Program-made: the position numbers and the translations under genes
The notes under the pieces: generated by a model
What the model was told of the DNA's origin: nothing
The model's input: the letters and a program-made list of their open reading frames with translations, nothing else
Database searches by the model: none
Shown here: positions 9,166 through 38,757 of the stretch, in pieces
Layout: the number at the start of each line of letters is the position of its first letter
Position numbering within the stretch: the first letter of the stretch is position 1
Source of the DNA: Abditibacteriaceae bacterium
Lineage (GTDB): Bacteria > Armatimonadota > Abditibacteriia > Abditibacteriales > Abditibacteriaceae
Reading direction: 5' to 3'
Assembly (NCBI GenBank): GCA_031372065.1
Contig: JANMKN010000207.1
Span: 1 to 59,309, forward strand
DNA length: 59,309 bases

Positions 9166-9335
9166 TGAGGGATTGAGTTTGAAATTCAGAAACGTAACTT
9201 CCCTCCCTTCGGGAGGGATTGAGGGAGGGCATAACGGCGGTATAACCGCCGTTACCCCCACCTAATCCTGCCCGCAAGCGGGCACCCGCCCAAAGGGGAG
9301 GGACTACGCTTTTGAATCTCAAACTCAATCCCTCA
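9166..9335. repeat. 170-bp nested inverted-repeat element (MITE/BIME-like)
   Basis: Left end tgagggattgagtttgaaattcagaaacgta closely matches the reverse complement of right end tacgcttttgaatctcaaactcaatccctca; internal ccctccc/gggaggg hairpins and central taacggcgg-tata-accgccgtta. Confidence 0.75.
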
Positions 9336-9378: not shown

Positions 9379-9957
9379 ATGATTCCTCAACGCCTGAGCG
9401 TCAAATTTTTCATCAAAGGCAGCGCGCCTGCTTTGCCGCCGTTTGTGCCTTTGTTTCACCGTTGGATTCAAAACAACACTGTCGAAGGCTTGCTGATTGA
9501 CGTGGCCGATTACGAACACGTCCCCGATGGCCCCGGCATTTTGCTGATCGGTCACGATGTGGATTACAGCATTGATCTAACCGACGGCAAGCCCAGTTTG
9601 ATGGTGCGTCGCAAACGCTACGAAGACAGCGACGATTTCGCCGCCATTTTGCGCGACACCTTACGCAAAGCCGCGCAAGCTGCCAACGCTTTGCACGCCG
9701 ATGATGCGGTCAGCATCGAAATAGACGCCACCACGGTGGAAATCACCTTAATTGACCGCCTGCAATCGCCTAACACGGCAGAAGCCTACGCCGCTGCGAC
9801 TTCCGAAGTCGAAGCGGTGTTAAACGCGCTTTATCCCGCCGGTTTCGAGCTTCGTCAGGGCAGCGACGACCCGCGCGATTGTTTGAGCCTTGTTGCCACC
9901 AGCAAAAGCACGGCAGATTTCGCGTCTCTCGCTGGCAATCTGACGGCGACTGTTTAA
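9379..9957 (+). CDS. Hypothetical protein downstream of the reductase
   Basis: 192-aa ORF with host-like codon use; motif-like PLFHRWIQ...LLIDVADYEHVPDGPGILLIGH; followed by a terminator. Confidence 0.75.
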   Translation: MIPQRLSVKFFIKGSAPALPPFVPLFHRWIQNNTVEGLLIDVADYEHVPDGPGILLIGHDVDYSIDLTDGKPSLMVRRKRYEDSDDFAAILRDTLRKAAQAANALHADDAVSIEIDATTVEITLIDRLQSPNTAEAYAAATSEVEAVLNALYPAGFELRQGSDDPRDCLSLVATSKSTADFASLAGNLTATV

Positions 9958-9974
9958 GCGCTCGCCCCCGCTAT

Positions 9975-10010
9975 AAAAAAGCCCCATTTTCGTATGAAAT
10001 GGGGCTTTTT
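9975..10010 (+). terminator. Intrinsic terminator (possibly bidirectional)
   Basis: aaaaaagccccatttt-cgtatg-aaatggggcttttt. Confidence 0.8.
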
Positions 10011-10017
10011 GCGTTTT

Positions 10018-10045
10018 GTAGGGACGTGATTCATCACGTCCCTAC
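10018..10045. repeat. GTAG-type REP palindrome
   Basis: GTAGGGACGTGAT-tc-ATCACGTCCCTAC perfect stem beginning with GTAG. Confidence 0.7.
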
Positions 10046-10094
10046 GGACTGCTGCTCGTTAATCTTCGTAAATTCATAAGCCAAACTCATTAAT

Positions 10095-10390
10095 GGCTGT
10101 TTTGAGTGAACTGAATTCAGTTCACTCAAAAAAACGCTTGTGGCGACTCAACTGAATTCAGTCCGCTCGAAAAAATGCTTGTGGCGACTCAACTGAATTC
10201 AGTTGAGGTCAAAAAACGGCTGTGGCGACTCAACTGAACTCAGTTGAAGTGAAAAAACGGTTGTGGTGACTCAACTGAACTCAGTTGAGGTGAAAAAACG
10301 GTTGTGGCGACCCAACTGAATTCAGTTGAAGTGAAAAAACGGCTTTTTAGGCCCAACTGAACTCAGTTGGAGGCAAAAAACGGCATTTTA
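10095..10390. repeat. Tandem array of 7 x 41-bp units, each with a palindromic core AACTGAA(T/C)TCAGT and an A-tract
   Basis: CTGAA(T/C)TCAG cores start at 10111, 10152, 10193, 10234, 10275, 10316 and 10357 (exact 41-bp period). Confidence 0.95.
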
Positions 10391-10420
10391 GGGCTTTTTT
10401 TACTTTTTGCGAGGTGAATA

Positions 10421-10477
10421 TTGCAAATTCAGGCCGCTATAAGACATAATAAAAGGCACCATTTCGTTTTTAGGAGG
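10421..10477 (+). promoter_or_regulatory. Putative sigma70 promoter and RBS for the 10485 gene
   Basis: TTGCAA (10421)-18 bp-CATAAT (10445); AGGAGG at 10472-10477. Confidence 0.45.
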
Positions 10478-10484
10478 AATTATT

Positions 10485-11414
10485 ATGGCCGCAAACCCGA
10501 TTCCTAACGGAATCAGCGAATTGCTAACTATGGCGGATGATGCCGCCGATGGGCTTCACGAACTGCAAGTGCAGCTGAGAGATATAGGTATTAAGCAAAA
10601 TACCGAAGCTGCCATCCGCACCGATATTGACCGCGTTGTCACCGCGCGACGCCAATACCGGGATGCTCAAGGTCAACAAGACGACCGTCAAGACGACCAA
10701 AACACCGCTGACCGCGCCGGGCGCCGGTTTTTGGTGGCGTATCGCAAGCGGATTTCGGGCTTTTTGGGCGACAATCCCAATGCCGAATGGGAAATCGCTT
10801 TGGATACCACAGGTTCCACACGAGTGGCGACCACCATAGACAAACGGCAAGATCAACTGCAAGCGGCGACGAACTATCTCACCGAACATCCCGATTATGC
10901 CGATGCCGCACTCGGCATCACCGCTACGATTGCTGGCAACGCGCTTCAAGTTTTGTCCACCGCGCGCATAGCTCTACGCACTGCTGAGACGGTGACAGAA
11001 GACAAGCAAAAGGAACTGGAGACAGCCGTCAAACTGCTGGCAAAACGGATGCGCGGTTTGCTCGGCGAATTGGAGCAGTTGCTACCACCCGACGACGCCA
11101 CTTGGCATCTACTCGAACTGAACGCGCCCGCCGACCCCGACACGCCCGAAGTCTCCGAAAAACCTACGTTGCATCCCTTGGGCGACGGCGCCTTGGAAAT
11201 GATTTTCACGCTGCCGCGCCGCGCCAAATACGCCCATTTATGGGTGCAGCAAAGCGGCGTTGACGCCGAACCGCGCCGCATCGAAGGCCAATTCCAATCG
11301 CCCGCTGTCGTGCGCGGTTTACCGCTCAACGTGCCACTGCTGGTTTTTATCAGCGGCGTCAACGAATCCGGTTCCGGCCCCCGCAGCGCGGCGGCCAACG
11401 TGACAGTGACGTAA
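10485..11414 (+). CDS. Uncharacterised protein: long amphipathic helices plus C-terminal FN3-like beta-sandwich, no signal peptide
   Basis: Strong RBS; helical/coiled-coil N-terminal ~215 aa; C-terminus ...VVRGLPLNVPLLVFISGVNESGSGPRSAAANVTVT resembles the FN3 GLxPxxxYxFxVxAxNxxGxGxxS pattern. Confidence 0.8.
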   Translation: MAANPIPNGISELLTMADDAADGLHELQVQLRDIGIKQNTEAAIRTDIDRVVTARRQYRDAQGQQDDRQDDQNTADRAGRRFLVAYRKRISGFLGDNPNAEWEIALDTTGSTRVATTIDKRQDQLQAATNYLTEHPDYADAALGITATIAGNALQVLSTARIALRTAETVTEDKQKELETAVKLLAKRMRGLLGELEQLLPPDDATWHLLELNAPADPDTPEVSEKPTLHPLGDGALEMIFTLPRRAKYAHLWVQQSGVDAEPRRIEGQFQSPAVVRGLPLNVPLLVFISGVNESGSGPRSAAANVTVT

Positions 11415-11426
11415 TTGGGCCACAAC

Positions 11427-11466
11427 AAGGGATGGAAAGAAGAACAAAAACTCCTTTCCATCCCTT
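11427..11466 (+). terminator. Stem-loop after the FN3-like gene
   Basis: aagggatggaaag...ctttccatccctt. Confidence 0.55.
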
Positions 11467-11542
11467 ACGGGATTATTTCCAGAGTAAACTGAGTTTGCGT
11501 TTATCAGGTCTTCTGCTTAGGCTTTGATTACATTCGGACAAT

Positions 11543-12877
11543 ATGAAAAACGCACCAAATGCCCCCATTCGAACGTTGCCACAAAAGCCTGCACCGGGCG
11601 AGAAATTTCGAATTTTGGTTGTCGAAGACGATGCCGAAGTTGCCCGTCTGATTTTGCTGAATCTGGCACGCGCCGGATTGGATTGTCGCTATGTCAATGA
11701 TGGCCTAATGGGTTTAACGGCGTTTCGAGAGGCCGACCCGCATTTAATCCTGTTAGATTTGATGTTGCCCGGTTGTGATGGCCGCCATGTTTGTATGAAA
11801 GTGCGCGAAAAAAGCACGGTTCCCATCATCATTTTGACCGCGATGTCCGGTGAGGAGCCGCAGTTGCAGTGCTCCAAACTTGGAGCTGACGATTTCGTGA
11901 CAAAGCCATGTAATCCGAAATTATTGATAGCGCGCGTGTTAGCTCATCTGCGTCGCACTTATGGCTACAATGCCGAAACGGAAAATATGGACACGGAATC
12001 GCAACCGCAAGAACCGGCCACTCCATCACTGTTGCCGAAAACCACAATAACAATTCCTATCGGCTGCGCGCATTGTGAGGCGTGTGGTTTTACAGGGCCA
12101 CAACCTGCTTTTGAAACAGTAGATGATCAAGGTGCGTCCTGCCCTCGCTGCAACCACAAAGAAAATATATGGGTGAATATTGCTGATTTATATCGCCCTG
12201 CCGAGAAGGAGGTAAGCGAACTTAGGACTATGGCACGTGCAATTGTCCATAGTGCGAATTCGGAGTTTTTTATCATTGGTTCTTCTACTAATAAGCTGCG
12301 AAAGCTCATTCAAGGTAATAGTGAGGCCCAAGAAAAATGTGATTCGATTGCAGAGAGCGTTGAATACACCGAAATTCTCTGCCGGCGGCTAATGGATTAT
12401 TTACAAATTGGCAAACCGCCACTGGTTCCCATAGATGTTCTTGAGATCGTCAGGAAAGTTGAGCGTGCAGCGCAGCGACGTCTTCCTGCAAACATCCAAT
12501 TAAATGTTACTGCGGACAATTTGGGAAAAAATAAAATTGTCCTCGCAAATGCCGAACAGATCATAGGAGTTCTGTTAGAACTCATTCATAATGCCAGAAA
12601 CGTTTTGCATGAGAACGGCGGGGAAATTAGCTTCAACGTCTCAAATTGCAATGACCAGATTGTCTTTTCGGTGACTGACAATGGATCAGGCGTTCCAAGG
12701 GAACTGAGGGATGAATTACTCAAGCAACCCGTATTGAGTAAAAGTGGATCGGGTGTCGGATTATTTCTTTCTAATCAAGTTATGCAAGCATTGGGTGGAC
12801 AGATAATCTTTGAAACCTCTGACCAAGGCACTGAGTTTTCTGTTTCGTTACCCCTCGCCCCTGTGGAGGCTGAATAA
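11543..12877 (+). CDS. Hybrid signalling protein: receiver domain + Cys-rich Zn ribbon + histidine-kinase ATPase domain
   Basis: ILVVEDD...LILLDLMLP...ILTA...GADDFVTKP; CAHCEAC...CPRC; putative H-box IVHSANS, N-box ELIHNA, G1 VTDNGSG, G2 GSGVGL. Confidence 0.85.
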   Translation: MKNAPNAPIRTLPQKPAPGEKFRILVVEDDAEVARLILLNLARAGLDCRYVNDGLMGLTAFREADPHLILLDLMLPGCDGRHVCMKVREKSTVPIIILTAMSGEEPQLQCSKLGADDFVTKPCNPKLLIARVLAHLRRTYGYNAETENMDTESQPQEPATPSLLPKTTITIPIGCAHCEACGFTGPQPAFETVDDQGASCPRCNHKENIWVNIADLYRPAEKEVSELRTMARAIVHSANSEFFIIGSSTNKLRKLIQGNSEAQEKCDSIAESVEYTEILCRRLMDYLQIGKPPLVPIDVLEIVRKVERAAQRRLPANIQLNVTADNLGKNKIVLANAEQIIGVLLELIHNARNVLHENGGEISFNVSNCNDQIVFSVTDNGSGVPRELRDELLKQPVLSKSGSGVGLFLSNQVMQALGGQIIFETSDQGTEFSVSLPLAPVEAE

Positions 12878-20235: not shown

Positions 20236-20295
20236 CATTTCTTCAAAATGCCTGCTCCGCGCGCCGTTGAGCGGCCCCTGCATCGCATTTTCGCC

Positions 20296-20547
20296 CATCC
20301 GTAGAGTAGTCGAGGGCATCTGCATAGTTGTAAAAACCATCCGCAGAGATGTAAAAAGCATCTGCATAGTTGTAAATGGCATCTGCATAGTTGTAAATGG
20401 CATCCGCAGAGATGTAAAAAGCATCTGTAGAGTAGTAAATGGCATCCGCAGAGATGTAAATGCCATCGGTAGAGATGTAAAAAGCATCTGCGGAGATGTA
20501 AACGGCATCTGTAGAGTAGTCAGGAGCATCGGTAGGGAATTCCGGTA
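20296..20547. repeat. Tandem array of 12 degenerate 21-bp units (consensus roughly CATCYGYAGAGWTGTAAAWRG)
   Basis: CATC starts every 21 bp from 20296 to 20527; some units are identical (20359=20380; 20338=20401). Confidence 0.93.
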
Positions 20548-23916: not shown

Positions 23917-26900
23917 TTACGGCGCGGCTAAGAAGACATCGGTTTTACCCGTTGTCGGTTTGCCAAACGAATCTATCAAGTTCCAAGCGACCTGCACCTT
24001 GTCATTGGCCCGCAGCGCGCTGGTGGGCAACTTCAATAGCACAGATTGGTTGCTTGCGCTATACGACACTTGGTCAACGTTTACCGTTTGACCATTGACG
24101 GTCACCGTATAATTTGTTGCTGTCATGGCGCTTTGCGCATTGAGCAAGCCGGTGAACACCAATTTCACGCTTCGGGTGCTGGCGGTTGCCGTTGCTTGCG
24201 AAACCGTGATGGTTCCACCTCCGCCGCCTCCGCCACCACTTGTCACGGAGAATTGGTTCGCTGCGGTGGCTGTCTGGTTGTTGTTGTCAACAGCGATCGC
24301 TTCCAAGCGATACGTTCCTGCCGCGAGTTGCGACCCTGTTGGCAAGCCTGACGTGCGTGCCCATTTCACACCGCCGGTGACGGCGGTTAATGTAGTGGTC
24401 AAGGCCGTTTTAGCGCCCCACGTCGTGCCTGTCCAATAAAGGCTGTCGCTGCTGCGTTGCAGATAAATTGTCACGCGGGCAATGCCTGCTACGCCTTTGG
24501 CCTCGCCTTGAGTTGTCAGTGTTGTTACGCTGAGGGTTGAGCCATTGGTAGGTGAAGTGATAGTAACAGCGGGCGGCGCCCCAACGATAACGCCAATGGT
24601 GTGCGTTGCGCTGTTGCCCGCATGGTCAAAACCAGTCGCCGAAATAGTGTAGCGTCCCGTCAGCAAGTTGCTGCCAGTCGGCAAGCCTGCACCGCGTGCA
24701 AACACATAGTTGATTGGTGCATAGTTGGTCGTCAGTGTTGGAATCACCATCACAATCGGGCCGGGCGGCGGCGGCGTGACCTGTCCAGTGGCGACCGGGT
24801 TGAATGCCAAACCTGCGGGGCCGTTGAGATCGCCGGTGGCAAAAACGGCCTGACTTTGTCCGGCACCTGGATTGGCCGCACCCGTTTTGGGATCGAAGCG
24901 CAATACTGCCGAGCCGCTGCCAGCGTTGGCGTTGGATGTGCCGAACGAGCTGACATAAAGCTGACCGTCCGGGCCAAAGCGCAGCCGTTCGGGGCCGTTC
25001 AGACCAAACGCAGCGCCATTGTTATCCGCGATGAAATCTTTCACAAAGGCGCCGGTGACACCATCGTAAAGTTTGATGTCATCTGTTCCGCTGGAAGCCA
25101 CATAGCAATCGCTGCTGCCGTCGCCAGTGTTGTCTGGCCCAAATTGCACATCGGTGGGGAAGTCCAATCCTCCATCGGCGGGGATAACAAAATCGCGGAT
25201 GAAAGTGCCATCCACGCCGCTGTAAACCGGAACCTTCTTGTCAAACAGCGCCGTGACATACAGATCGCTTACACCATCGCCATCAGCGTCGTTGCCCCAA
25301 CCGATACCTTCAAAGCCGTTGGAGACGCCGCCCGCATTCGGTAACACGAAGTCGCCCAAATAAGCGCGTGTGCGAATGTCGAATCGCTTGACGCTGGTGG
25401 GGAACGAGGCGTAGGTGTAAGAACTGCCATCGGGTCTCTTGCCATCTCCATGTCCGTTGGCAACTAAAAGATCGCCATTGGGCATAAAAGCCAGACCTGT
25501 CGGGTAAATCAGACCGCTGCCTTGGGCAAAGACACCCAAACTTTGTTTTGTCTTGCCATCATAGAACAGCACGCGGTTCGCCAGACGTTCGGCCACAAAC
25601 AGTTCAGGATAGCCGTCGCCATTGAGGTCGGAGCCAAACGCGATGGATTCAGGATGATTGATACCTGTGGCGAAAATACTCTGTGAGGCACCAGAGGCAG
25701 CGTCAAATTCTTTAATCAGCCCACCATTATAGCTGCCAACCAAAAGCGAAGCGCTGGGGAATGGTTCCTTTGGTGCCGGTTTGGGGTCTGACCATGCTGT
25801 GCCATCCCAATATTTCTTGTCGCTGTCGCGTTGGATTTTCAACGTTACCTTGTCAATGCCGCTACCGGCATCGCGTGCGGTGCCGCGCGTTTCCAAGGTG
25901 CTAACTACAGCGTTGTTTTTGGGTAGGAAAATTTCCACCAGCGGCCCAGAGGTGTCCAGCGTAACGCGGATGGAAGTTCCGACAATATTGCCCGCGAAAT
26001 CGTAGGCAACTGCCTGTAAGGTGTAGCCTCCCGGCAGGGTTTGCGACGCATTGGGTAATTGTGAACTGACGCCTACCCATTCTACGCCGCCACCATTGGT
26101 GAATTGTTTATTTGTCAGTGATGTTGGCAAATCGGTGCGCAAATCGCCCCACGCCTTGCCTGTCCACCATTTTTTGTCGCTTTCGCGCATGATGCGCACT
26201 ACAACTTTGGCGATGCCTGTGGCGCCCGGCTCGCCGGGGTTGTCAATGGCATAACCAATGAGGCTCGATAGCGAACTGATAGCACCACCCGCTGTCGGCT
26301 TGGTATAGGCGATAAAAGGCGAACCCCGGTCAATCAGGAACGAGGAACTTGCCGAATCACGGCGTCCAATAGGCGTTGTCGCGGAGGCTGTTAAGCGATA
26401 AGCGCCGCTGGTTAATTGGCTGGTCGTTGGCAGATTGCTGGTTGAGGCCCATACGCCGGTAGTCGCATTGAATGTCGCGGTGAAGGACGGCGCTACGGCG
26501 GGATTCGAAACTACCCATAACGAACCATTGAAATAACGGCTGTCAGAAAGGCGCTGCAAGCTGAATTTAATGGTCAACGGTTCGCCATTGGGACTTGTTG
26601 CTGTTCCGGCCACGGAAGTCAGCGCATTGATAATTGCGCCATTGGACGGTGTGGTAATGCTAATCGTAGGCGCTTCGGGCACTGTGACTTCGTATTCCAG
26701 AAAAGTGGAATTGTAATTCTTGTCGAAGGATTGCACCTCGATGCCATATAAGCCCGCAATTAAGTCCTTATCCACTGGTAGACCGGTTAGTTTGCTCCAC
26801 GAAGTGCCGTTGAGCGTGACAGAAAGATGCGAATGCCCATCAATCCAGCCGAAGCCATTCCAGTGTTTGTTGTCGGCATGGCGATGGAAGCCAATTTCAA

Positions 26901-28626
26901 CTCGTTCGATGCCACAGCCACCAACGTTATCCATGGTTGTGCCGGACGCGGCTAAAGTAGAAACAATGGCACCATCAAGAGGTTTGGTAATGGTCAATGT
27001 CGGTGCAAGGCTGTCTGGTGCTTTAGCGCCGAAGTTGATGTCAGATTTGTCGCCATCCACATTAAGAGGATTGGTAAAGTTCGCGGGCGCAATCACAGTG
27101 CCGCTGGGGTCAGTGGCGGTCACATCATATTTACCGACTTTGATGCCTGTCAGTGTATAAGTGCCGTCCGAGTTGCTCTTGGTGGTTTTATTTAGAATTG
27201 CGATGGCAACATCGGCATCCGCAACGGGGCTGCCGCAGGTTGACAGCACTGTGCCGCTCACGCGCAAGGAATTGGGGTTGCCGACTTTGATGGCGATGCT
27301 GGCCGAACCTGTGCCACCTTTCATGTCGGAAACGGTAACGCGAACAATGTAATCGCCGTTGGCCGCCCAAGAATGAGAAATCGTAGCGGCGTTGGCGCTG
27401 CTGTAACCGCCGTCGCTGAAGTCCCAATAAAAGGCTAATGTGTCGCCATCAGGGTCAGTGGCACTGGCAGTGAAATCCACCTTGTTGCCGGGTAGGGTTG
27501 TGGTGGTGCTGGCCGTTATGCTGACCTGTGGCCCGCTATTACCCGGAAAATCGCCAATATTGGCATTAATTTCCAATTGTTCAACGGTGCCGGGAATTCG
27601 TTTAATCGGTGTGAGATGAACTTTCGAAGCCGTATCTGAAAATGTTCGCCCAATGACGAGAGCCGAATCTAACTTATCCGTGTAGGCATTGGCACTGGAA
27701 TCGGGCGTCATGTCCAACACTTCGCTGCCATTATCGCCCGGATGACGCCAACGGATAGAGGCGCCGTTTTGCAGAAAGACGTTGTTGAATTGCTTGCGAT
27801 ATTCCACCCAATAAGTGCGCGAACTGCCCGCAATTTTTAAGGCTCGCAAGCCAGCAGCGGCACTATTATCATGCTCTTCAATGCGATAAGTGCCGCTGGC
27901 CGTGACATTTTGCACACCTGCACCGGGCAGCCAGTCAATTTGGTTTTTATAATTGGTGTTGAAGTGATAAGCACTGGAACCGCCAACTGATCCCATCGCA
28001 TCGAAAGGGTCGCCATATTCTTCTGGTGCCCCCACTCCAATCGGCGTGCCGTCGGTGGTTTCCCAGTAGTTGGCGTGCAAAAGACCAAAATTATGGCCGA
28101 CTTCGTGGCTGATGACACGCAAATCGAAGTAACCATTGATCCATGAGCCGGGTGCTCCCACGAAACCCAAACCAGCCCAACCATAACCGATAGTGTCAAA
28201 GCCCAGAAGGTGAAAATCGTATTTGCGATAATCGAAACCTGCTTTGGTGGCCGCATCGCGCGCTTCTGTGAGCAGCAAAAAGGCGTCGTTGATATAGACA
28301 TCTGTGTTGCTGGTCATACGCAGCGTTGGCGTCACATCTACTTTTGCCAATGTAGTTGTGCCGTAGGAACAGTCTTTATAAAAGTCGAAGACTGTCTGCA
28401 TCAATGCTTTGGCATTGGCATCTGGGATAGGATCGCCCTGTTTATCGGGAAAATCCACCTTGATGAACAAAAAGGTTTTCGCTCCCTGTGTGTAAGCCGA
28501 AGCCTCCGCCGGACGCGAAAAACCTGCCAAGGTGCCAAGCACCAAAAGAACTGGGAGCATCCAACTCACCCAGTTTTGCAACCGTCCCTCATTAACGCCA
28601 TTTCCCATTGCACTTTGCCACTTCAT
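23917..28626 (-). CDS. Large secreted metzincin metallopeptidase (M11/M6-like) with PKD, Ig-like repeats, beta-propeller and C-terminal Ig-like domain
   Basis: Signal peptide ending AEA; HEVGHNFGLLH, EYGDPFDAMG (Met-turn); PKD DPDGDTLAFYWDFSDG; five Ig repeats; NHL-like PxxLxFxPDG repeats; poly-Gly linker then terminal domain. Confidence 0.85.
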   Translation of the reverse strand: MKWQSAMGNGVNEGRLQNWVSWMLPVLLVLGTLAGFSRPAEASAYTQGAKTFLFIKVDFPDKQGDPIPDANAKALMQTVFDFYKDCSYGTTTLAKVDVTPTLRMTSNTDVYINDAFLLLTEARDAATKAGFDYRKYDFHLLGFDTIGYGWAGLGFVGAPGSWINGYFDLRVISHEVGHNFGLLHANYWETTDGTPIGVGAPEEYGDPFDAMGSVGGSSAYHFNTNYKNQIDWLPGAGVQNVTASGTYRIEEHDNSAAAGLRALKIAGSSRTYWVEYRKQFNNVFLQNGASIRWRHPGDNGSEVLDMTPDSSANAYTDKLDSALVIGRTFSDTASKVHLTPIKRIPGTVEQLEINANIGDFPGNSGPQVSITASTTTTLPGNKVDFTASATDPDGDTLAFYWDFSDGGYSSANAATISHSWAANGDYIVRVTVSDMKGGTGSASIAIKVGNPNSLRVSGTVLSTCGSPVADADVAIAILNKTTKSNSDGTYTLTGIKVGKYDVTATDPSGTVIAPANFTNPLNVDGDKSDINFGAKAPDSLAPTLTITKPLDGAIVSTLAASGTTMDNVGGCGIERVEIGFHRHADNKHWNGFGWIDGHSHLSVTLNGTSWSKLTGLPVDKDLIAGLYGIEVQSFDKNYNSTFLEYEVTVPEAPTISITTPSNGAIINALTSVAGTATSPNGEPLTIKFSLQRLSDSRYFNGSLWVVSNPAVAPSFTATFNATTGVWASTSNLPTTSQLTSGAYRLTASATTPIGRRDSASSSFLIDRGSPFIAYTKPTAGGAISSLSSLIGYAIDNPGEPGATGIAKVVVRIMRESDKKWWTGKAWGDLRTDLPTSLTNKQFTNGGGVEWVGVSSQLPNASQTLPGGYTLQAVAYDFAGNIVGTSIRVTLDTSGPLVEIFLPKNNAVVSTLETRGTARDAGSGIDKVTLKIQRDSDKKYWDGTAWSDPKPAPKEPFPSASLLVGSYNGGLIKEFDAASGASQSIFATGINHPESIAFGSDLNGDGYPELFVAERLANRVLFYDGKTKQSLGVFAQGSGLIYPTGLAFMPNGDLLVANGHGDGKRPDGSSYTYASFPTSVKRFDIRTRAYLGDFVLPNAGGVSNGFEGIGWGNDADGDGVSDLYVTALFDKKVPVYSGVDGTFIRDFVIPADGGLDFPTDVQFGPDNTGDGSSDCYVASSGTDDIKLYDGVTGAFVKDFIADNNGAAFGLNGPERLRFGPDGQLYVSSFGTSNANAGSGSAVLRFDPKTGAANPGAGQSQAVFATGDLNGPAGLAFNPVATGQVTPPPPGPIVMVIPTLTTNYAPINYVFARGAGLPTGSNLLTGRYTISATGFDHAGNSATHTIGVIVGAPPAVTITSPTNGSTLSVTTLTTQGEAKGVAGIARVTIYLQRSSDSLYWTGTTWGAKTALTTTLTAVTGGVKWARTSGLPTGSQLAAGTYRLEAIAVDNNNQTATAANQFSVTSGGGGGGGGTITVSQATATASTRSVKLVFTGLLNAQSAMTATNYTVTVNGQTVNVDQVSYSASNQSVLLKLPTSALRANDKVQVAWNLIDSFGKPTTGKTDVFLAAP

Positions 28627-30720: not shown

Positions 30721-33700
30721 ATGCACTCTTTTAATCAGTGGAAGCCGGAATCGGTGACCGGCGCGCAAAACGGGATGCGCAAGACCAACCAAGCAAAACA
30801 CTTGGTTGCTTTCGTGTTTTCGCGCTTTTTTGTTGTTTTGGCCGTTATGGGGTTGGCTGGACTGCTCACGCAGGGACGCGCCTTCGCGCAGGCGGCAAGC
30901 GTGACTTTGACGCTATCCACCAATACTTTTATTGAAGGCGATCCCAACATTGTAACGGGAACCGTGGCGTTAAACGGCCCAGCTTTGACAGGCCCGGCGA
31001 CGGTCAACATTTTTTACCAGATGCCTGCACCGGGTGGCCCCCAAGCACTGGTGGATAGTGTCGTTTTTAACCCCGGCGAAGAAAATACGGCCAAAACTAT
31101 TAACATTACTGTGGGCGATGACAACACCACAGGCAATCAGACTGTGGAAATCATTGCCACTGTCAGCGGGCCTGCGCCTTATGGTGGCCTAACGGCTAAT
31201 GCACCCGGCACGCAAACGCAAGTTGATCCGCACGGCGTTTTTCTGACCGAAGTGGCGGCCAACACCAGCGAATCCGATCCGGTGACTGGTTCACGCACAT
31301 TTTTGGACGTGTCACTGGTTGATCCCAATAATCCCTCGGCGAATCTGGCCGAGATTATGCCGACAGGCAATGTATTCGTCACTCTTATCGTGGCTAACAC
31401 GAACAATACAGAGTTTTCGGATGAGGCGCTGATTGCCACAGATAAGCAGCCAACATTCCAAAGGCGCCAAGTTCTGACTTTCACCCCACAAAACTTCCAA
31501 CAACCGCAGCGCGTTTATGTGCAGGGCGTGGATGACGAAAATTTACCGCCCGCTCAACGGATGGATGGCGATCAACTTTACCGTGTCATTGTGTTAGATC
31601 GAGACCTTAACACGGGTAACCTTGCTGGTCAGCCTGTCAATTCCAGTGATCCTGAATACAGTGGTATAGCAGCCAACACTGCTGTTTTTAATGTCAATCT
31701 TGATAACGAATCGAACACAGGCGGTAATCGGGCCGATGTGCTGATTAATTCGACTGATGGTGTGAATCCCGGCCCGACGAGTGGCTTGCAAACTAACGAA
31801 AGTGGTTCAATTGCTACGTTTACCGTAGTGCTGGCTTCAGCACCGACGGCGGATGTCACTATCAACCTGCAAACAAGTGATCCCACTGAAGGCAAACTCT
31901 TGGTGGGCGGGGCGCAAGTGGATTCTACTTCGATTACGTTTTCGCCTGATCCCACTGACCCCAACGGCTGGAACACTCCGCAAACCGTTCAAGTCAAGGG
32001 GCAAGATGATACTGTGGCAGATGGCAACATTAACTACAGCATCATCACCACGGTCAGCAGTCTTGACTCCAACTATGCTGCCATTGACCCGTCGAATGTC
32101 GGTTTAACCAACAATGATAATGAAGTGCCGGGTTTGACAGTTTCGCCCACGTTTTTATTGGTTTACGAAGGTCAATCGGCGAATATCACTGCGGTATTGA
32201 ATCAACGACCAACCTCTGACGTGCGCTTCGCCTTGGCCGTTACTGCGGGCGCTGGACAAGTCCAGCTGAATCGCACCGAAGTGGTCTTTACTCCATCCAA
32301 CTTCAATGTGCCGCAAACCGTAACGGTGACAGGCATTAATGACAATATCGTGGATGGCGACCAGCCTTTTACAATCGCTTTCCGCAATGCCACCAGTTCC
32401 GATACGCTTTACAATGGTAGGTTCGGCACCACTGTGACTGGCACAGTGGTAGATACCAACGCAGCGCGTGTAAACATTCAGCCACCGGGTGGTTTGACTA
32501 CTGATGAGTCTGGTGGGCAGACGACTTTCTCGGTCAGTCTTGCTTCGATGCCACAAGCGGGCACGACAGTCACCATCATTGTTAGTTCCTCGGATACTAC
32601 CGAAGGCACTGTTTCACCTGCGCGCTTGACCTTCACTCCAGCCAACTGGAATGTGTCTCAGACTGTGACGATTACCGGCGTGGATGATTTGCTGCGTGAT
32701 GGAAATGTGGATTATCAGATTAATCTGGATATATCCGGCAGTTCCGATTCGAACTTTGCCGCTTTGCAATTGCAATCAGTCACCGTTACCAACAACGATG
32801 CTGGTGAAACATCAGGCATTACCTTCTCGCAGCTTGGTGGCCTGACTACCACAGAGTCGGGCGGCACAGCGACGTTTACCGTTCAGTTGACCGCCCAACC
32901 GACAGCCAACGTGAATTTGGGGTTGAGCAGCAGCGATACCACAGAAGGTAAAGTTTCGCCAGCCAGCCTCACCTTTACGCCGACGAACTTCAATACGCCT
33001 CAAACGGTAACCATCACCGGCCAACCAGACCTAATTGACGATGGTGACATGGTTTACCAAATCGTGACAGCTGCTTTGGTCACGAACGATCCGACTTATA
33101 AGTTCAACCCGTCGGACGTGCTGGTGACCAATTTGGACGACGACACACGCGGTATTACCGTTACGCCCACCACGGGATTGGTTACCACCGAAAGCGGTGG
33201 CACAGCAACTTTCACGGTGCAGTTGACGTCGCAGCCCACAGACACTGTTACCATTGGTATCAGCACTCCATTTGCCAAGGAAATTTCACTGTCGCCGGCG
33301 TCCTTAACTTTCAACGCAACCAATTGGAACGTGCCTCAAACTGTGACAGTTACTGGCTTAAATGACATTGTCATTGATGGCCCCCGCACTTTTGTCGTTG
33401 TGACGGCCCCAGCGACCAGCAATGATGCGGTTTATAATGGCTTGGATGCGGCTGATGTAGTGGGCACCAATAATGACAACGATAGAGCGACTGTTTTCCT
33501 CAGTCCAGACCCACTAATCGTCCGTGAAGGACAATCGGGCAATGTCTCGGTGACCTTATCCGCTCAACCCACGGCAGACGTGATTGTGCCGCTGTTTGTC
33601 AATCCCACTGGCGAAGTTGTGCTTAATCAAAGCCAATTGACTTTCACGCCGCAAAACTTCAATGTCCCGCAGAAAGTGCGCGTCACCAGCTTGGCAGACG

Positions 33701-36700
33701 GCATTCCTGATGGCGATCAAAACGTGGTGTTGCAGGCCGGCAGAACGGGTAATGCGACCATCAGCGGCGATGCCAATTTCAATGGTTTGACTGCGACAAG
33801 TGCCATCACTAGTTTGGATGTAGTCGCAGTTGCCAAAGTCAACATTAGTGCCCCCAGCACGACTATCGTCAGTGAAAATGGGGCTGCGGCCACCATGACA
33901 GTCACACTGGGTGCTCAACCTGCCTCGAATGTGACGATTAATGTTTCCAGCAGCGATACCACTGAAGGCACTGTCGCGCCCGCATCGCTGACATTCACAC
34001 CTGCGAATTTCAGCACACCGCAAACTGTGACGGTGCGTGGCGTCAATGACAATGTTGCGGATGGAAATATCAACTTCAAAGTCACTTTTGGTGTTCCGGT
34101 TAGTTCCGATCCCAATTACAGCGGATTGACACCGCAGAGCTTCACATTCACGAATGTAGATAATGATGCGGCAGGCTTTATTGTTACGCCGTTCAATGGT
34201 CTGACCACCACAGAAGCGGGCGGCACCGCGACTTTTACGGTGCGATTGGCATCGCAGCCGACGGCCAGTGTCACCACGACGTTAAGCACGCCTTTCACGG
34301 GAGAAATTTCCTTCGCTCCCCCCAGCCTGACTTTCTCAACAACCAATTGGAACGTGCCGCAAACCGTAACAGTGACAGGCAAGGATGACGCAGTCATTGA
34401 TGGCAACCGCACTTGGGTGCTGGTGACGAATCCGGGAACCAGCAGCGATCCGAAATACAATGGTCTGAACCCTTCAGATGTAGTGGGCGCCAACACCGAC
34501 AACGACAAGGAAAGCATTATTATTAGCCCGTCTTCGCAACTTGTGCGCGAAGGCCAATCAATAACGTTTTCTATCAGATTGCTGGGCACACCGAATTCTA
34601 ATGTAGTTGTGCCTCTCTCTGTGAACCCAACTGGCGAAGTGGTATTGGACAAGAACCAGATAGCCTTCACACCAGCCAATGCTAATGTGGCGCAGACTGT
34701 GAAAGTCACCAGCTTGGCCGATGGCGTTCCGGATGGCAACATAACTGTTATTCTGACTGCCGGCTCTTCTGTTAGCCCAGATGCTAAATTCGACGGACTT
34801 TCCGCGACAGCCACTATCACCAGCTTGGATGTTGTGGCTGCGCCGGCAGTTAATATCGTTGGCCCCACCACGACAGCAGTCAATGAAAGCGGAACCACGG
34901 CGACTTTTGATGTAACGCTCAATGCCCAGCCGGGCGCCAATGTGACGATTAATCTTTCGAGCAGCGACATTACCGAAGGCACTGTGTCACCCGCCTCACT
35001 GACCTTTACGCCCGCTAACTTCAACGCGGTGCAGACTGTGACTGTAACTGGCGTGAATGATTTTGATGATGATGGAAACGTCAACTTCAAAGTTAATCTC
35101 TCGAAGCCAGTTAGCAACGATCCCAACTATAGCGCACTTGCGGCGCGTAGTTTTACCTTTGTCAATGTGGATGATGACACAGCGGGCATCACCGTGACGC
35201 CGTTTAAGGGCTTGACCACCAATGAAAGTGGTTTGGCAGCCACCTTCACCGTGGTATTGAATTCAAGGCCCAAAGCCAATGTTGCGATTGCCTTAAGCAC
35301 ACCATTCACTAAAGAAATTTCATTCTCGCCCACGAATTTGGTCTTTACCAACGCGAATTGGAACGTGCCGCAAACTGTGACGGTAACGGGTGTGGATGAT
35401 GCCGTCGAAGATGGTGACCGCACTTGGGTATTGGTGACGAACCCAGCGACCAGTGGTGATGCGCAATACAATGGTTTGAATCCCTCCGATGTAGTAGGCA
35501 CCAACAGGGACAATGAAGCACCGGGTTACACCATTACTCCTGGATTTGTGGTTGTGGAAGAAGGTAATACCACCACTTTTACGCTGCGATTGAATTTGAA
35601 ACCGACTGATGTTGTGCGGGTTCCTGTTAGCGTGAACCGGATTCCAGGTCAGCCCGATCAAGTGGGCCTCAACACGACGGCTGTTATCTTTACGCCCACT
35701 AATTTCAGCACACCGCAAACTGTGACCGTGGTAGGCATAGACGATAACATTCGTGACGGCGATCAGCCGTTCCGCATCAATATCGGAAACGCCATTAGCT
35801 CTGATCCAGCTTATAACGGTCAGCACGCTACCACGTTGAACGGCACTTGCGTGGATACCGATGTTCCGGGTGTGCTTGTTAGAGCCGCCTCGCCTTTCAT
35901 CACCAGAGAAGTGGGCGGCTCGGCGACCTTCACTGTGGTGTTGCAAACTTCGCCGCAACCGGGTAATACGGTAACGATCAATGTCGGGACTACCGATTCA
36001 ACTGAAGTTACGGTAGCACCGACTACATTGACTTTCGATTCTAACAACTTCGATATTCCGCAAACGGTGACCGTGAACGGAATAGATGACGGTCTGCGCG
36101 ATGGCGATCAGAATTATCAAATCACATTGCGCATGGCTCAGACTTCCGACCCAGATTATGTGAGTCTGCGAATTCCGTCCATCAATGCAGTCAATATTGA
36201 TAACGGCGGTGCAGGTATCGTTATTACTCCAGCGACTGGATTGACGACTTCGGAAGATGGCACCACGGCTACCTTCGGCGTGCGTTTGATTAATTCGCCC
36301 AATAGCCCCGTTTCTGTGCAGTTGCGTTCAAGTGATCTCAGCGAGGGTATCTTGTTAGGTGCCAATGCGCAGCCAGCTGTCAATAACTCTGTGACATTGA
36401 CGTTCGACAACACCAACTTCAATGTAGATCAGTCCGTGACTGTGCAAGGCGTGGATGATACTATCGTCGATGGCGATGTCAGTTACTCCATCACCTCACG
36501 CTTGTCCAGTAATGATCCAAACTTCAACTTGACTGGGGCTTCGGCTTTGATTGTCAACACGGATAACGATACGGCGGGCATTGTAGTTAATCCGACAACG
36601 GGCTTCGTGTTAGCCGAAGGTGGCAGGGGCAACTTTACTGTTGCGTTGACCACCCAGCCCACTGGCAAGGTTGTGGTGCGTTTGCAAAGCACTGATACCA

Positions 36701-38757
36701 CCGAGGCTACAGTCAATTATTCAGCGATCACGTTCTTCCCCACCGCGCCCGTCGGAACTGCTCCGGTGGGTGAATTCTTCACGCAATGGAATCGTCCGGC
36801 AACGGTGACAATTTCCGCTGTGGCCGATGGTGTGAGCGATGGAGATCAGAGTTGGAAGATTATCCTTTCTCGCGATGCCGGCGTTACACAGGACGATTTC
36901 TATAAGACCATTGATCCGGCTGATGTGACAGGCATCACGACGGATGTGAATTTGCCAGGCGTTACCGTGACAGGTGCGACATCCATCACCACCAGCGAAA
37001 GCGATACGAAGAACAACGCATTCACTTCGTTTAAAGTTAGCTTGCAATCAAAGCCAGCCGACAATGTGGTGATTCCGGTGAGCAGTTCTAACCGCGCCGA
37101 AGCTGTTGTGGGTGTGCCAAGCAGCTCGGTATTCACACCGGGCGCCAGCTTGACCTTTACCCCAGCCAACTGGAACGTGCCGCAAACAGTAAAAGTGCGT
37201 GGCGTGGATGATGCTATTGAAGATGGCAACCAAGCGTATTTTGTGGTTATTGGCCCGACCATTAGCCGCAGTTCCTTCTACAATGGAATTGATCCTGCCG
37301 ACATCGTGGGGTTGAACCAAGATGACGAAGACCTGACAGCACCGACGGTGACCATTACGGCGCCAACGGATGGGGCTGTGCTGAACTTCTTGCAAGAAGT
37401 GATTGGCACCGCCGATGATGCTGTAAGCAGCGGCAATGGACAGGCCAGTGGTATTGCATCAGTGAAAGTTAGCTTATTGCGTCAGGCTAACGCAGCGCTG
37501 AAACAGAGTGCGGGTTATTATAATCCGGCCACAAAGTCCTACGATCCCGTAGCACTCTTCAATCCGGCCAAGCATCTTATGTTGGCGCGCTATAACTCGG
37601 CCACTAAAACGTTCTCGCTGCTCCTTCCGCTGACAGGAACACCGCCCAGTCTCGAATCGGGCACTTATACCCTGAAGGCCAGAGCAACCGATAACAAAGG
37701 CAACTTAACCGATAGCGAAACAGTAACGTTCGTTATTGATACGAAGGTGCCTACCGTAACTTTGACCTCACCGAAACCCGGCACCTTCTCGGCGCCGCCT
37801 CAGGTGAAAGGTGTGGCGCAGGATAATGCGGGTGGCACTGGCATTGACCAGACATTCGTGAAAGTCTTCCGCGCCGCCAACACCGCTTTGGGGAACACAG
37901 CTGGTTATTTACTGCCCGATGGAAGTTTTAGTGACACCTTTGGCCCAGAAAATCTCCTGCCTGTGGTGCCTGAATTGCCGGACGCCGCTGGCGCGGTGAA
38001 CTTTACGTTCGACTTCCCGGCTCTTGGCGCGGGCCAGTATACCGTGCAAGCGCAAACACAGGATGTAGCTGGCAACATCGGCAAATCCAGCAATGTAACC
38101 TTTACGTTGCGCAATGTGTCCGGTGTTGACGACTTCTTGATCGGTCAGACTTACTTGTTCTCGTTGCCTTATTCAAACAACAATACGGCAGGAGCGACCG
38201 TGAAGCCTGACGAGGCATTCAATGTGGCAATGTTCGATCCGACAAATGGTGACCAACGTTATTTGCTCAGTCGCTTTAATCCGCTCACGTCAAGTTACGA
38301 GATTTTGGACCAAACGGCTTTGCTGAAGCGTGGCGAGGGTTATGTGATTAAGCCATTGTCGTCTAATGTGCGGATTTTGCGGCCAACGGAAGATGATTCA
38401 CGAATTCCGCTGGCGCAAAGCATCACGACTTGGACGTATACGCTGCGTCGCAACGCCAGCGGCAGTAGCAATGATCCGAACAATGGCTTTAATCTGATTG
38501 GCGATCCGTTCCATCCAGACTTCTATCTGGCCGCTGACTGGCAGAATGCTGTCTTTACCGATGGCACCAACACTTATAACGGTGTTGCCGCCGCCGCTGC
38601 GGCTGGCTTGGTGGATAGCCGACTATTTACGTTGAACTCCTCCACGGGAGCGTTTGAGCCACTGAATGGTAACTTGGAAGTGTTCAAGGGTTACTTTGTG
38701 CGCACCTTCCAAGACAATGTGCAAGTCACTGTGCGCGCGATTTCGACGCAGCAATAG
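30721..38757 (+). CDS. Giant surface protein/adhesin (about 2680 aa) with 17 Calx-beta/cadherin-like repeats, two Ig domains and a conserved C-terminal domain
   Basis: RBS AAGGAG; signal ending AFAQA; repeated TTESGGTATFTVxL..QPT...SSDTTEG..SLTFT..NWNVPQTVTVTGVDD...DGD...NxDND. Confidence 0.9.
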   Translation: MHSFNQWKPESVTGAQNGMRKTNQAKHLVAFVFSRFFVVLAVMGLAGLLTQGRAFAQAASVTLTLSTNTFIEGDPNIVTGTVALNGPALTGPATVNIFYQMPAPGGPQALVDSVVFNPGEENTAKTINITVGDDNTTGNQTVEIIATVSGPAPYGGLTANAPGTQTQVDPHGVFLTEVAANTSESDPVTGSRTFLDVSLVDPNNPSANLAEIMPTGNVFVTLIVANTNNTEFSDEALIATDKQPTFQRRQVLTFTPQNFQQPQRVYVQGVDDENLPPAQRMDGDQLYRVIVLDRDLNTGNLAGQPVNSSDPEYSGIAANTAVFNVNLDNESNTGGNRADVLINSTDGVNPGPTSGLQTNESGSIATFTVVLASAPTADVTINLQTSDPTEGKLLVGGAQVDSTSITFSPDPTDPNGWNTPQTVQVKGQDDTVADGNINYSIITTVSSLDSNYAAIDPSNVGLTNNDNEVPGLTVSPTFLLVYEGQSANITAVLNQRPTSDVRFALAVTAGAGQVQLNRTEVVFTPSNFNVPQTVTVTGINDNIVDGDQPFTIAFRNATSSDTLYNGRFGTTVTGTVVDTNAARVNIQPPGGLTTDESGGQTTFSVSLASMPQAGTTVTIIVSSSDTTEGTVSPARLTFTPANWNVSQTVTITGVDDLLRDGNVDYQINLDISGSSDSNFAALQLQSVTVTNNDAGETSGITFSQLGGLTTTESGGTATFTVQLTAQPTANVNLGLSSSDTTEGKVSPASLTFTPTNFNTPQTVTITGQPDLIDDGDMVYQIVTAALVTNDPTYKFNPSDVLVTNLDDDTRGITVTPTTGLVTTESGGTATFTVQLTSQPTDTVTIGISTPFAKEISLSPASLTFNATNWNVPQTVTVTGLNDIVIDGPRTFVVVTAPATSNDAVYNGLDAADVVGTNNDNDRATVFLSPDPLIVREGQSGNVSVTLSAQPTADVIVPLFVNPTGEVVLNQSQLTFTPQNFNVPQKVRVTSLADGIPDGDQNVVLQAGRTGNATISGDANFNGLTATSAITSLDVVAVAKVNISAPSTTIVSENGAAATMTVTLGAQPASNVTINVSSSDTTEGTVAPASLTFTPANFSTPQTVTVRGVNDNVADGNINFKVTFGVPVSSDPNYSGLTPQSFTFTNVDNDAAGFIVTPFNGLTTTEAGGTATFTVRLASQPTASVTTTLSTPFTGEISFAPPSLTFSTTNWNVPQTVTVTGKDDAVIDGNRTWVLVTNPGTSSDPKYNGLNPSDVVGANTDNDKESIIISPSSQLVREGQSITFSIRLLGTPNSNVVVPLSVNPTGEVVLDKNQIAFTPANANVAQTVKVTSLADGVPDGNITVILTAGSSVSPDAKFDGLSATATITSLDVVAAPAVNIVGPTTTAVNESGTTATFDVTLNAQPGANVTINLSSSDITEGTVSPASLTFTPANFNAVQTVTVTGVNDFDDDGNVNFKVNLSKPVSNDPNYSALAARSFTFVNVDDDTAGITVTPFKGLTTNESGLAATFTVVLNSRPKANVAIALSTPFTKEISFSPTNLVFTNANWNVPQTVTVTGVDDAVEDGDRTWVLVTNPATSGDAQYNGLNPSDVVGTNRDNEAPGYTITPGFVVVEEGNTTTFTLRLNLKPTDVVRVPVSVNRIPGQPDQVGLNTTAVIFTPTNFSTPQTVTVVGIDDNIRDGDQPFRINIGNAISSDPAYNGQHATTLNGTCVDTDVPGVLVRAASPFITREVGGSATFTVVLQTSPQPGNTVTINVGTTDSTEVTVAPTTLTFDSNNFDIPQTVTVNGIDDGLRDGDQNYQITLRMAQTSDPDYVSLRIPSINAVNIDNGGAGIVITPATGLTTSEDGTTATFGVRLINSPNSPVSVQLRSSDLSEGILLGANAQPAVNNSVTLTFDNTNFNVDQSVTVQGVDDTIVDGDVSYSITSRLSSNDPNFNLTGASALIVNTDNDTAGIVVNPTTGFVLAEGGRGNFTVALTTQPTGKVVVRLQSTDTTEATVNYSAITFFPTAPVGTAPVGEFFTQWNRPATVTISAVADGVSDGDQSWKIILSRDAGVTQDDFYKTIDPADVTGITTDVNLPGVTVTGATSITTSESDTKNNAFTSFKVSLQSKPADNVVIPVSSSNRAEAVVGVPSSSVFTPGASLTFTPANWNVPQTVKVRGVDDAIEDGNQAYFVVIGPTISRSSFYNGIDPADIVGLNQDDEDLTAPTVTITAPTDGAVLNFLQEVIGTADDAVSSGNGQASGIASVKVSLLRQANAALKQSAGYYNPATKSYDPVALFNPAKHLMLARYNSATKTFSLLLPLTGTPPSLESGTYTLKARATDNKGNLTDSETVTFVIDTKVPTVTLTSPKPGTFSAPPQVKGVAQDNAGGTGIDQTFVKVFRAANTALGNTAGYLLPDGSFSDTFGPENLLPVVPELPDAAGAVNFTFDFPALGAGQYTVQAQTQDVAGNIGKSSNVTFTLRNVSGVDDFLIGQTYLFSLPYSNNNTAGATVKPDEAFNVAMFDPTNGDQRYLLSRFNPLTSSYEILDQTALLKRGEGYVIKPLSSNVRILRPTEDDSRIPLAQSITTWTYTLRRNASGSSNDPNNGFNLIGDPFHPDFYLAADWQNAVFTDGTNTYNGVAAAAAAGLVDSRLFTLNSSTGAFEPLNGNLEVFKGYFVRTFQDNVQVTVRAISTQQ

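What the first reader, a model, noticed from the sequence alone, without database searches (positions are those of the whole stretch)
10095..11466. 41-bp palindromic array directly upstream of an unexported helical+FN3-like protein: candidate undescribed array/protein system
Seen: seven units at an exact 41-bp period, which is not a multiple of 3 and is about four helical turns. Each unit has a dyad core AACTGAA(T/C)TCAGT followed by an A5-7 tract. Flanking bases vary, but in two units they change symmetrically: unit 1 is a perfect 32-bp palindrome TTTTGAGTGAACTGAATTCAGTTCACTCAAAA, unit 3 has CTCAAC...GTTGAG and unit 7 has CCAAC...GTTGG. The array lies between an upstream terminator/REP and the promoter/RBS of a monocistronic 309-aa gene with its own downstream hairpin. 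That protein has no signal peptide or recognisable enzyme motif. There are no unique spacers, cas genes or Nop-domain protein, so it is neither CRISPR nor TIGR-Tas. Inference: array and gene form one module. The array is either a phased multi-site DNA scaffold (iteron/centromere-like, bent by the A-tracts) or the template of a multi-hairpin RNA that the protein binds.
Basis: partly seen in the sequence, partly recalled or inferred. Interest (0 to 1): 0.85.

Follow-up and report, generated by a model that had tools for sequence, protein, structure and literature searches.

The report
Gene-coupled four-turn palindromic DNA arrays
A real seven-copy, 41-base palindromic repeat sits in front of an uncharacterised helical-plus-fibronectin gene, and nearly all relatives of that gene carry their own different 41-42-base repeat, so the protein likely reads or builds on one of the unexplained fixed-length repeats of bacterial genomes.

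Summary
The array is real: seven units, exact 41-bp period. The gene link is strong. A 41/42-bp array lies upstream of 10 of 11 paralogues in this genome, against 6 of 364 random genes, and of 20 of 26 homologues elsewhere, against 0 of 26 downstream. Period and two-fold symmetry persist while the sequence turns over. The units look like inverted pairs of ~21-bp halves. Their mismatches show no RNA G-U bias (41 vs 37), and the array lies outside a sigma-70-like promoter, which favours DNA over RNA. The locus is not a one-off: the genome holds about 300 such 21- or 42-bp arrays and at least 12 small gene families, while congeners have few. Fixed-size, variable-sequence bacterial repeats are described, with function unknown (PMC8161180); I did not find the gene partnership in print. 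The scan found similar modules before on other DNA. Best reading (0.5): an accessory cassette whose protein likely binds its own array in helical phase. Binding is untested, and the protein is acidic with no known DNA-binding motif.

The parts
9976..10010 (+). Intrinsic-terminator-like hairpin closing the upstream 192-aa gene (boundary, not part of the cassette)
10018..10045 (.). GTAG-type REP-like hairpin (label recalled), probably an independent insertion
   Evidence: 4 copies of the pattern in the genome
10076..10099 (+). 24-bp 5' leader identical in the gene-less sister array on contig C85
10092..10384 (.). Array of seven 41-bp units; each has a main dyad (AACTGAA[T/C]TCAGT) and a weaker second dyad half a period away at the A-tract
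10421..10450 (+). Sigma-70-like promoter (TTGCAA-18-CATAAT) between array and gene
   Evidence: one hit; 1.1 expected by chance, so weak alone; 26 of 56 family genes versus 218 of 1402 background genes carry such a site
10472..10477 (+). Ribosome-binding site AGGAGG
   Evidence: sequence
10485..11414 (+). 309-aa gene ('family A'): two homologous helical modules (about residues 1-107 and 108-215) plus a C-terminal FN3 domain (217-309)
11427..11466 (+). Downstream hairpin, probable terminator of the cassette
   Evidence: 16-bp arms, 94% complementary; not called by the terminator scan

Best explanation
This is an accessory array-plus-gene cassette in which the 41-bp array likely acts as double-stranded DNA and is likely bound by the cassette's own helical protein. 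Shown: the fixed gene-array pairing, the conserved 41/42-bp period, the two-fold symmetry of the units, the array's place upstream of a promoter-like site, and the patchy, burst-like spread. Inferred: the protein would load cooperatively as a row of two-fold-symmetric units, one per four helical turns on one face of the DNA. This would throttle its own promoter, with gene-less sister arrays acting as extra docking sites or as left-overs of cassettes that lost their gene. Protein and array would drift together, so each paralogue keeps a private sequence at a fixed period. What the bound row does for the cell is not shown.
For: Pairing: 10 of 11 family-A paralogues with upstream DNA have a lag-41/42 array versus 6 of 364 random genes (Fisher p about 6e-15, kin not independent). 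The eleventh has only 213 bp upstream, showing two 42-bp-like units. In other genomes 20 of 26 loci have one upstream, 0 of 26 downstream and 0 of 20 further upstream; none has a 21-bp array; 7 of 9 clusters at 70% protein identity have one. Symmetry: 33 of 44 41/42-bp units are self-complementary versus 17 of 181 21-bp units. DNA not RNA: dyad mismatches on the sense strand are G-T 41, A-C 37, p=0.73, over 33 arrays. A clade-specific core survives turnover: GAG-N-CTC in 14 of 18 Verrucomicrobiota arrays, 0.4 expected. Period class is family-specific in one genome (A, F, J 41/42; B, D, E, G, H, I, L 20/21), which a single host reader would not predict. Array density follows gene presence: 38.8 per Mb here, 7.7 in G003, 0 in G002. 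PMC8161180 proposes a protein that needs a constant repeat size to polymerise on such repeats.
Against: No binding is shown. The protein has no recognised DNA-binding motif and is acidic (pI 5.0, net -11; family median pI 5.4), although basic columns are conserved in the family. Unit similarity falls to near background below about 70-80% protein identity, which is fast for a cognate operator. The simple 'two modules = 42 bp' rule fails: two-module families G (5 of 5) and I (3 of 4) have 20/21-bp arrays. Of 304 arrays, 189 have no recognised family gene nearby, and only 1 of these 189 has a clear gene remnant, versus 2 of 189 controls. Family C has its array downstream of the gene. 6 of 26 outside homologues fall below the array threshold.
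Confidence: 0.5

Rival explanations
1. The array is a DNA-geometry element read by a host factor (nucleoid protein, RNA polymerase or a regulator) that tunes the promoter. The encoded protein does something unrelated, for example structural or defensive, and never touches the array.
For: The protein is acidic and has an FN3 domain but no DNA-binding motif. The array abuts promoter-like sites. The period is conserved while the sequence is not.
Against: Period class and symmetry differ by gene family inside one cell. Gene-less arrays avoid promoter-bearing gaps: 43 convergent and 21 divergent, versus 106 and 260 in background. No sigma-54 site in 0 of 56 genes, although the genome encodes sigma-54.
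Confidence: 0.2
2. The array is a selfish dispersed repeat (REPIN- or MITE-like) that is copied around the genome. The gene is its helper or passenger, so the array is a mobility substrate and not a regulatory platform.
For: 42 of 59 gene-linked arrays have a sequence relative elsewhere in the genome. The C85 sister array sits at a site that holds only a terminator in G001 and G003. Gene-less arrays prefer convergent gaps. The genome has 7 Y1-transposase matches. Each RAYT has its own REPIN cluster beside it (PMC3116915).
Against: No transposase or recombinase family matches the protein. Homology ends between sister arrays vary, for example +5 past the array for the window/C85 pair and +134 for C365/C19. 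Sisters are old (72% identity) and clusters are small (153 clusters for 304 arrays, largest 10). No excision-type joint appears in the contigs of four runs (contigs drop rare forms).
Confidence: 0.17
3. The array is transcribed into repeated hairpin RNAs that bind the protein, as in type III toxin-antitoxin or guide-RNA systems.
For: The layout of repeats upstream of one gene resembles type III loci, whose repeats are 31-62 nt (PMC3401426). The strand folds well (z -9.7), as any palindrome array must. Some 52-nt Bacillus repeats are reported as transcribed (PMC8161180).
Against: No G-U bias. Several dyads have no loop. No terminator between array and gene, and the only promoter-like site lies downstream of the array. 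The period is locked to B-DNA turns (20/21, 41/42) where type III repeat lengths vary. No ToxN-like, PADLOC or Rfam match at curated thresholds.
Confidence: 0.08

Closest known systems
Bacterial tandem repeats of constant size and variable sequence (Subirana and Messeguer; PMC8161180, abstract, methods, results and part of the discussion read)
   Same: Non-coding arrays of 20-21 nt (a few of 40-41 nt), many families per genome, unrelated sequences, patchy among relatives, function unknown; a polymerising protein is proposed as reader.
   Different: The text read names no adjacent gene and has no occurrence of 'upstream' or 'palindrom'. Here the 41/42-bp class is abundant and two-fold symmetric, and it is tied to a defined gene family. 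The 2020 J Bacteriol paper was not held and supplements were not read.
REPIN/RAYT systems (PMC3116915, passages read)
   Same: Each gene copy has its own repeat family beside it, with further copies dispersed in intergenic space.
   Different: The protein is not a Y1/HUH transposase. The repeats are phased tandem arrays, not REP doublets, and copy numbers per family are low.
Type III toxin-antitoxin loci ToxIN/CptIN/TenpIN (PMC3401426, passages read)
   Same: A tandem array directly upstream of a single gene, private to each locus.
   Different: The order here is terminator, array, promoter, gene, not promoter, array, terminator, gene. There is no toxin homology and no RNA-type mismatch bias.
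Plasmid centromere/operator arrays such as F sopC (12 x 43 bp with inverted repeats) and iterons (recalled, also named in e1-5126022; not read)
   Same: Helically phased repeats with a dyad, bound cooperatively by a neighbouring gene's product.
   Different: No ParA/ParB or Rep gene, a chromosomal setting, many paralogous cassettes per genome, and no known DNA-binding fold.
BrickBuilt minisatellite MITE of Porphyromonas gingivalis (PMC4596501, abstract only)
   Same: An intergenic tandem repeat (23 nt) with a conserved leader, in several copies.
   Different: BrickBuilt is one sequence family with leader and tail inverted ends. Here there are about 150 unrelated families, no shared tail, and a linked gene.

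Membership tests
Constant-size variable-sequence bacterial tandem repeats | Fixed period of 20-21 (or 40-41) nt across unrelated sequence families in one genome | tested here: met
   203 21-type and 70 41/42-type of 337 repeat regions; 304 arrays in 153 sequence clusters
Constant-size variable-sequence bacterial tandem repeats | Non-coding, at least four repeats, patchy among relatives | tested here: met
   Seven units between genes, period not a multiple of 3; 31 arrays in 800 kb here, 3 in 390 kb of G003, 0 in 400 kb of G002
Type III toxin-antitoxin | Terminator hairpin between repeats and gene, promoter before the repeats | tested here: not met
   The scan of 9900-11600 finds the terminator before the array and the promoter-like site after it
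Type III toxin-antitoxin | ToxN/CptN/TenpN endoribonuclease | tested here: not met
   No Pfam hit; 0 of 82 members match PADLOC; the model is two helical modules plus FN3, 309 aa
Type III toxin-antitoxin | Repeats function as RNA; toxicity is neutralised by them | not testable with these tools
   No RNA holder listed; indirect: no G-U bias
CRISPR array | Constant repeats separated by unique spacers | tested here: not met
   All 41 columns are repeated; at least 4 of 7 units agree in all columns but one
CRISPR array | Adjacent cas genes | tested here: inconclusive
   Only cas5 was searched; the genome's one match is on another contig, C183. Neighbouring ORFs are a 192-aa unknown and a response-regulator-like ORF
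REPIN/RAYT | Adjacent Y1 (HUH) tyrosine transposase | tested here: not met
   The protein has no PF01797 match; the 7 Y1 matches of the genome lie on other contigs
REPIN/RAYT | Cognate repeat dispersed in extragenic space | tested here: met
   One gene-less sister on C85; 42 of 59 gene-linked arrays have a relative elsewhere
Centromere/iteron operator arrays | Adjacent partition or replication gene | tested here: not met
   No such Pfam or NCBIfam match for the gene; none among 52 of 92 neighbour ORFs scanned at homologous loci
Centromere/iteron operator arrays | Cooperative binding by the neighbouring gene's product | not testable with these tools
   Needs EMSA or ChIP
TIGR-Tas | Nop-domain protein and dual-spacer repeats (recalled) | tested here: inconclusive
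   No Nop Pfam hit and no spacers, but the helical part was not searched alone against solved structures

The most novel reading that the evidence does not exclude
A superfamily of small helical-module proteins, spread over several phyla, are the long-missing readers of bacterial fixed-length repeats. Each protein polymerises on its own private array at one unit per two or four DNA turns, with direct 21-bp arrays read head-to-tail and 42-bp arrays read as inverted pairs. Protein-array pairs diversify into dozens of orthogonal cassettes per genome and seed gene-less docking sites across the chromosome: a new class of length-ruled DNA-recognition system.
Probability: 0.3. Interest if true: 0.88.

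Novelty: new variant of a known kind. Interest (0 to 1): 0.64.

Why it matters
Fixed-length, variable-sequence repeats of 20-21 nt are an acknowledged puzzle. The authors who described them see no obvious function and suggest an unknown protein that polymerises on them (PMC8161180). This locus supplies a concrete candidate protein, about ten natural protein-array pairs with different sequences in one genome for swap tests, and a structural rule (a 42-bp unit is an inverted pair of ~21-bp halves). The question becomes directly testable. If binding is cognate, the pairs would be a natural library of orthogonal DNA-binding scaffolds.

Tried and rejected
Ruler rule (one helical module = 21 bp, two = 42 bp): fits A, F and H but fails for G and I; rejected as a general rule. 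Homodimer prediction: no verdict. No RNA holder listed among sequencing runs. Contigs of four DNA runs from one study show no informative joint; the 10224-to-10191 joint has the look of the C85 sister array or a repeat collapse. Viral contigs: 126 pattern matches, none a relative. Fold searches returned only FN3 rows. In the Atlas, residues 1-212 of homologue P0003 match unnamed clusters (TM 0.64-0.94); a DUF6261 cluster scores 0.83, a lead only. Rfam: 17 matches, all below gathering scores. No conserved neighbour among 52 of 92 ORFs scanned at 26 loci; restriction-type genes lie beside 4 loci, too few to call defence. The site of this cassette is not syntenic in congeners, so no empty site could be read. 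REP-like motifs near arrays: 7 of 50 gene-linked and 13 of 187 gene-less gaps versus 44 of 1034 other gaps, not a required part. Literature searches without a description of the gene-array pairing: DUF6261, 2 unrelated papers; 0 papers each; 1 paper, listing only; 5 papers naming the 2020 repeat paper, listings only. The library lacks most subscription journals. A metagenome-contig scan was not run. One search's output was cut and prints some flanks in the wrong orientation; only two correctly printed pairs are cited.

Full report
Observation. The array is as described. Seven cores AACTGAA(T/C)TCAGT start at 10109 + 41k, and that exact pattern occurs only here in the 6.14-Mb, 410-contig genome. 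TRF reports period 41 at 85-86% matches. The perfect palindromes of units 1 and 3 are confirmed. The order on the + strand is: terminator-like hairpin (9976-10010), REP-like hairpin (10018-10045), array (10092-10384), sigma-70-like site (10421-10450), ribosome-binding site, 309-aa gene (10485-11414), hairpin (11427-11466). The source organism was not determined; the DNA is held by freshwater-sediment runs of one study.

Gene and array go together. A protein search that ignores arrays finds 12 matches in this genome, one of them a family-H gene, with six full-length paralogues at 24-34% identity to the query. Of 11 family-A starts with upstream DNA (including a 5' remnant on C98), 10 have a 41/42-bp array within 750 bp, against 6 of 364 random genes. 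The eleventh is cut by a contig end and shows two 42-bp-like units; one further paralogue starts at a contig edge and was left out. Every array has a different sequence except the C14/C9 pair, whose proteins are 89% identical. In 26 loci from other genomes (25 Verrucomicrobiota by record title), 20 have a 41/42-bp array upstream, 0 of 26 downstream, 0 of 20 further upstream, and none a 21-bp array; 7 of 9 clusters at 70% identity have one. Unit similarity is 0.90 above 80% protein identity, 0.56 at 70-80% and 0.43-0.51 below, with shuffles at 0.44. A GAG-N-CTC core survives in 14 of 18 Verrucomicrobiota arrays (0.4 expected) but in only 1 of 10 arrays labelled A here. The period outlives the sequence.

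The wider population. The genome has 337 tandem-repeat regions, 203 of 21-type and 70 of 41/42-type. Their neighbours include at least 12 small paralogue families. Those other families were seeded from array neighbours, so their association is partly circular. The period class is family-specific: A, F and J have 41/42; B, D, E, G, H, I and L have 20/21; K is mixed; C has its array downstream. Of 304 arrays, 59 are gene-linked, 189 have no recognised family gene and 56 lie at contig edges; they form 153 sequence clusters, and 42 of the 59 have a relative elsewhere. About 11 'orphans' precede further unrecognised Ala-rich ORFs (my reading), but most sit by housekeeping genes. Orphans favour convergent gaps (43 convergent, 21 divergent, 123 tandem, versus 106, 260 and 668), so they are not host-gene promoters. 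The window's sister on C85 (72% identity) shares a 24-bp leader and seven units, has no gene, and occupies a site that holds only a terminator in G001 and G003. Family A is patchy: 1, 0 and 0 matches in three congeners (85, 79 and 97% complete), and 1 of 201 genomes of the phylum at E 1e-25. Array density follows: 31 in 800 kb here, 3 in 390 kb of G003, 0 in 400 kb of G002. This is three genomes only.

DNA or RNA. 33 of 44 consensus 41/42-bp units are more self-complementary than shuffles (p at most 0.05), against 17 of 181 21-bp units. A second, weaker dyad lies half a period away. So the long unit looks like two ~21-bp halves in inverted orientation, and the short arrays are mostly direct repeats. 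On the gene's sense strand, mismatches in the dyads of 33 arrays (2 short ones dropped) are 41 G-T and 37 A-C (p 0.73), where RNA stems would favour G-U. The strong predicted folding (z -9.7) follows from the palindromes alone. A sigma-70-like site lies in the 200 bp before 26 of 56 family genes versus 218 of 1402 background genes, and a sigma-54 motif before 0 of 56. The array therefore most likely acts as untranscribed double-stranded DNA; no RNA data were available.

Mechanism. I commit, at 0.5, to a cassette whose protein binds its own array cooperatively, one symmetric unit per four turns, and regulates its own promoter, with sister arrays as extra sites or left-overs. The pairing, period, symmetry, position and patchy expansion are shown; binding, oligomer state, regulation and any benefit are inferred. 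Against it stand the acidic, motif-less protein, the fast sequence turnover, the failure of a simple module-count ruler (G 5 of 5 and I 3 of 4 are two-module families with 20/21-bp arrays), the excess of gene-less arrays, and the near absence of gene remnants beside them (1 clear of 189, controls 2 of 189). The rivals are a host-read geometry element (0.2), a selfish dispersed repeat (0.17) and an RNA partner (0.08).

Comparison with what is known. The arrays belong to the constant-size, variable-sequence class of Subirana and Messeguer, who report 20-21 nt and a few 40-41 nt repeats, see no obvious function and suggest a polymerising protein (PMC8161180; parts 1-3 of 5 read; PMC6749651, three passages). 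The locus works like an operator or centromere array (recalled) and is laid out like REPIN/RAYT (PMC3116915, passages) or type III toxin-antitoxin loci (PMC3401426, passages), but it fails their defining tests. I found no paper on the gene-array pairing. The 2020 J Bacteriol paper was not held and supplements were not read, so either may bear on this. Earlier notes of this scan describe similar modules in other genomes. They are unchecked and not independent; one of them gave me the lead to the published repeat class.

Verdict. Real, module-like and unexplained: a new variant of a known but enigmatic kind of repeat, with a candidate reader that makes the puzzle testable. Interest 0.64.

Noticed in passing
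window 20295-20520: A second array (21-bp period, about 10 copies) with no family gene, between a convergent metallophosphoesterase-like gene and an ftsH-like gene (names from sequence reading). It has relatives on C135 and C58. The same gap holds unrelated, array-free DNA in G001-G003. The 102-, 107- and 141-aa heptad ORFs over it are probably spurious.
   Followed up: partly
window 9169-9332: A GC-rich palindromic repeat between the sulfite-reductase-like gene and the 192-aa gene. About 23 of G003's 27 matches fall on it, and it is multi-copy in the runs; probably a REP/MITE-type element.
   Followed up: partly
G000 C118:20514-20601 and C131:2529-2760: Some 21-bp arrays flip orientation part-way; 14 of 203 have at least two inverted units nearby. 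This may be how 42-bp palindromic units arise.
   Followed up: partly
P0004, P0008, P0023, P0045, P0071, P0076, P0096: 7 of 22 longer homologues carry a Trp/Asp-rich N-terminal extension, absent from the window's protein.
   Followed up: no
G000 C98:11698-12141, C275, C233, C351, C190; G027 C435 and C521: Several family genes are truncated or split while their arrays remain, suggesting frequent gene decay.
   Followed up: partly
G000 C69, C382, C43, C239, C234: Family C (~160 aa) has its 21-bp array downstream of the gene in 5 of 7 members, unlike the other families.
   Followed up: no
whole genome G000: GAG-N-CTC (422 seen, 1684 expected) and CTAG (109 seen, 23805 expected) are strongly depleted.
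   Followed up: no
window 30721-38757 and 39722-46327: Two very long ORFs (about 2678 and 2201 aa) and a 1569-aa secreted-looking ORF at 23917-28626; not examined.
   Followed up: no
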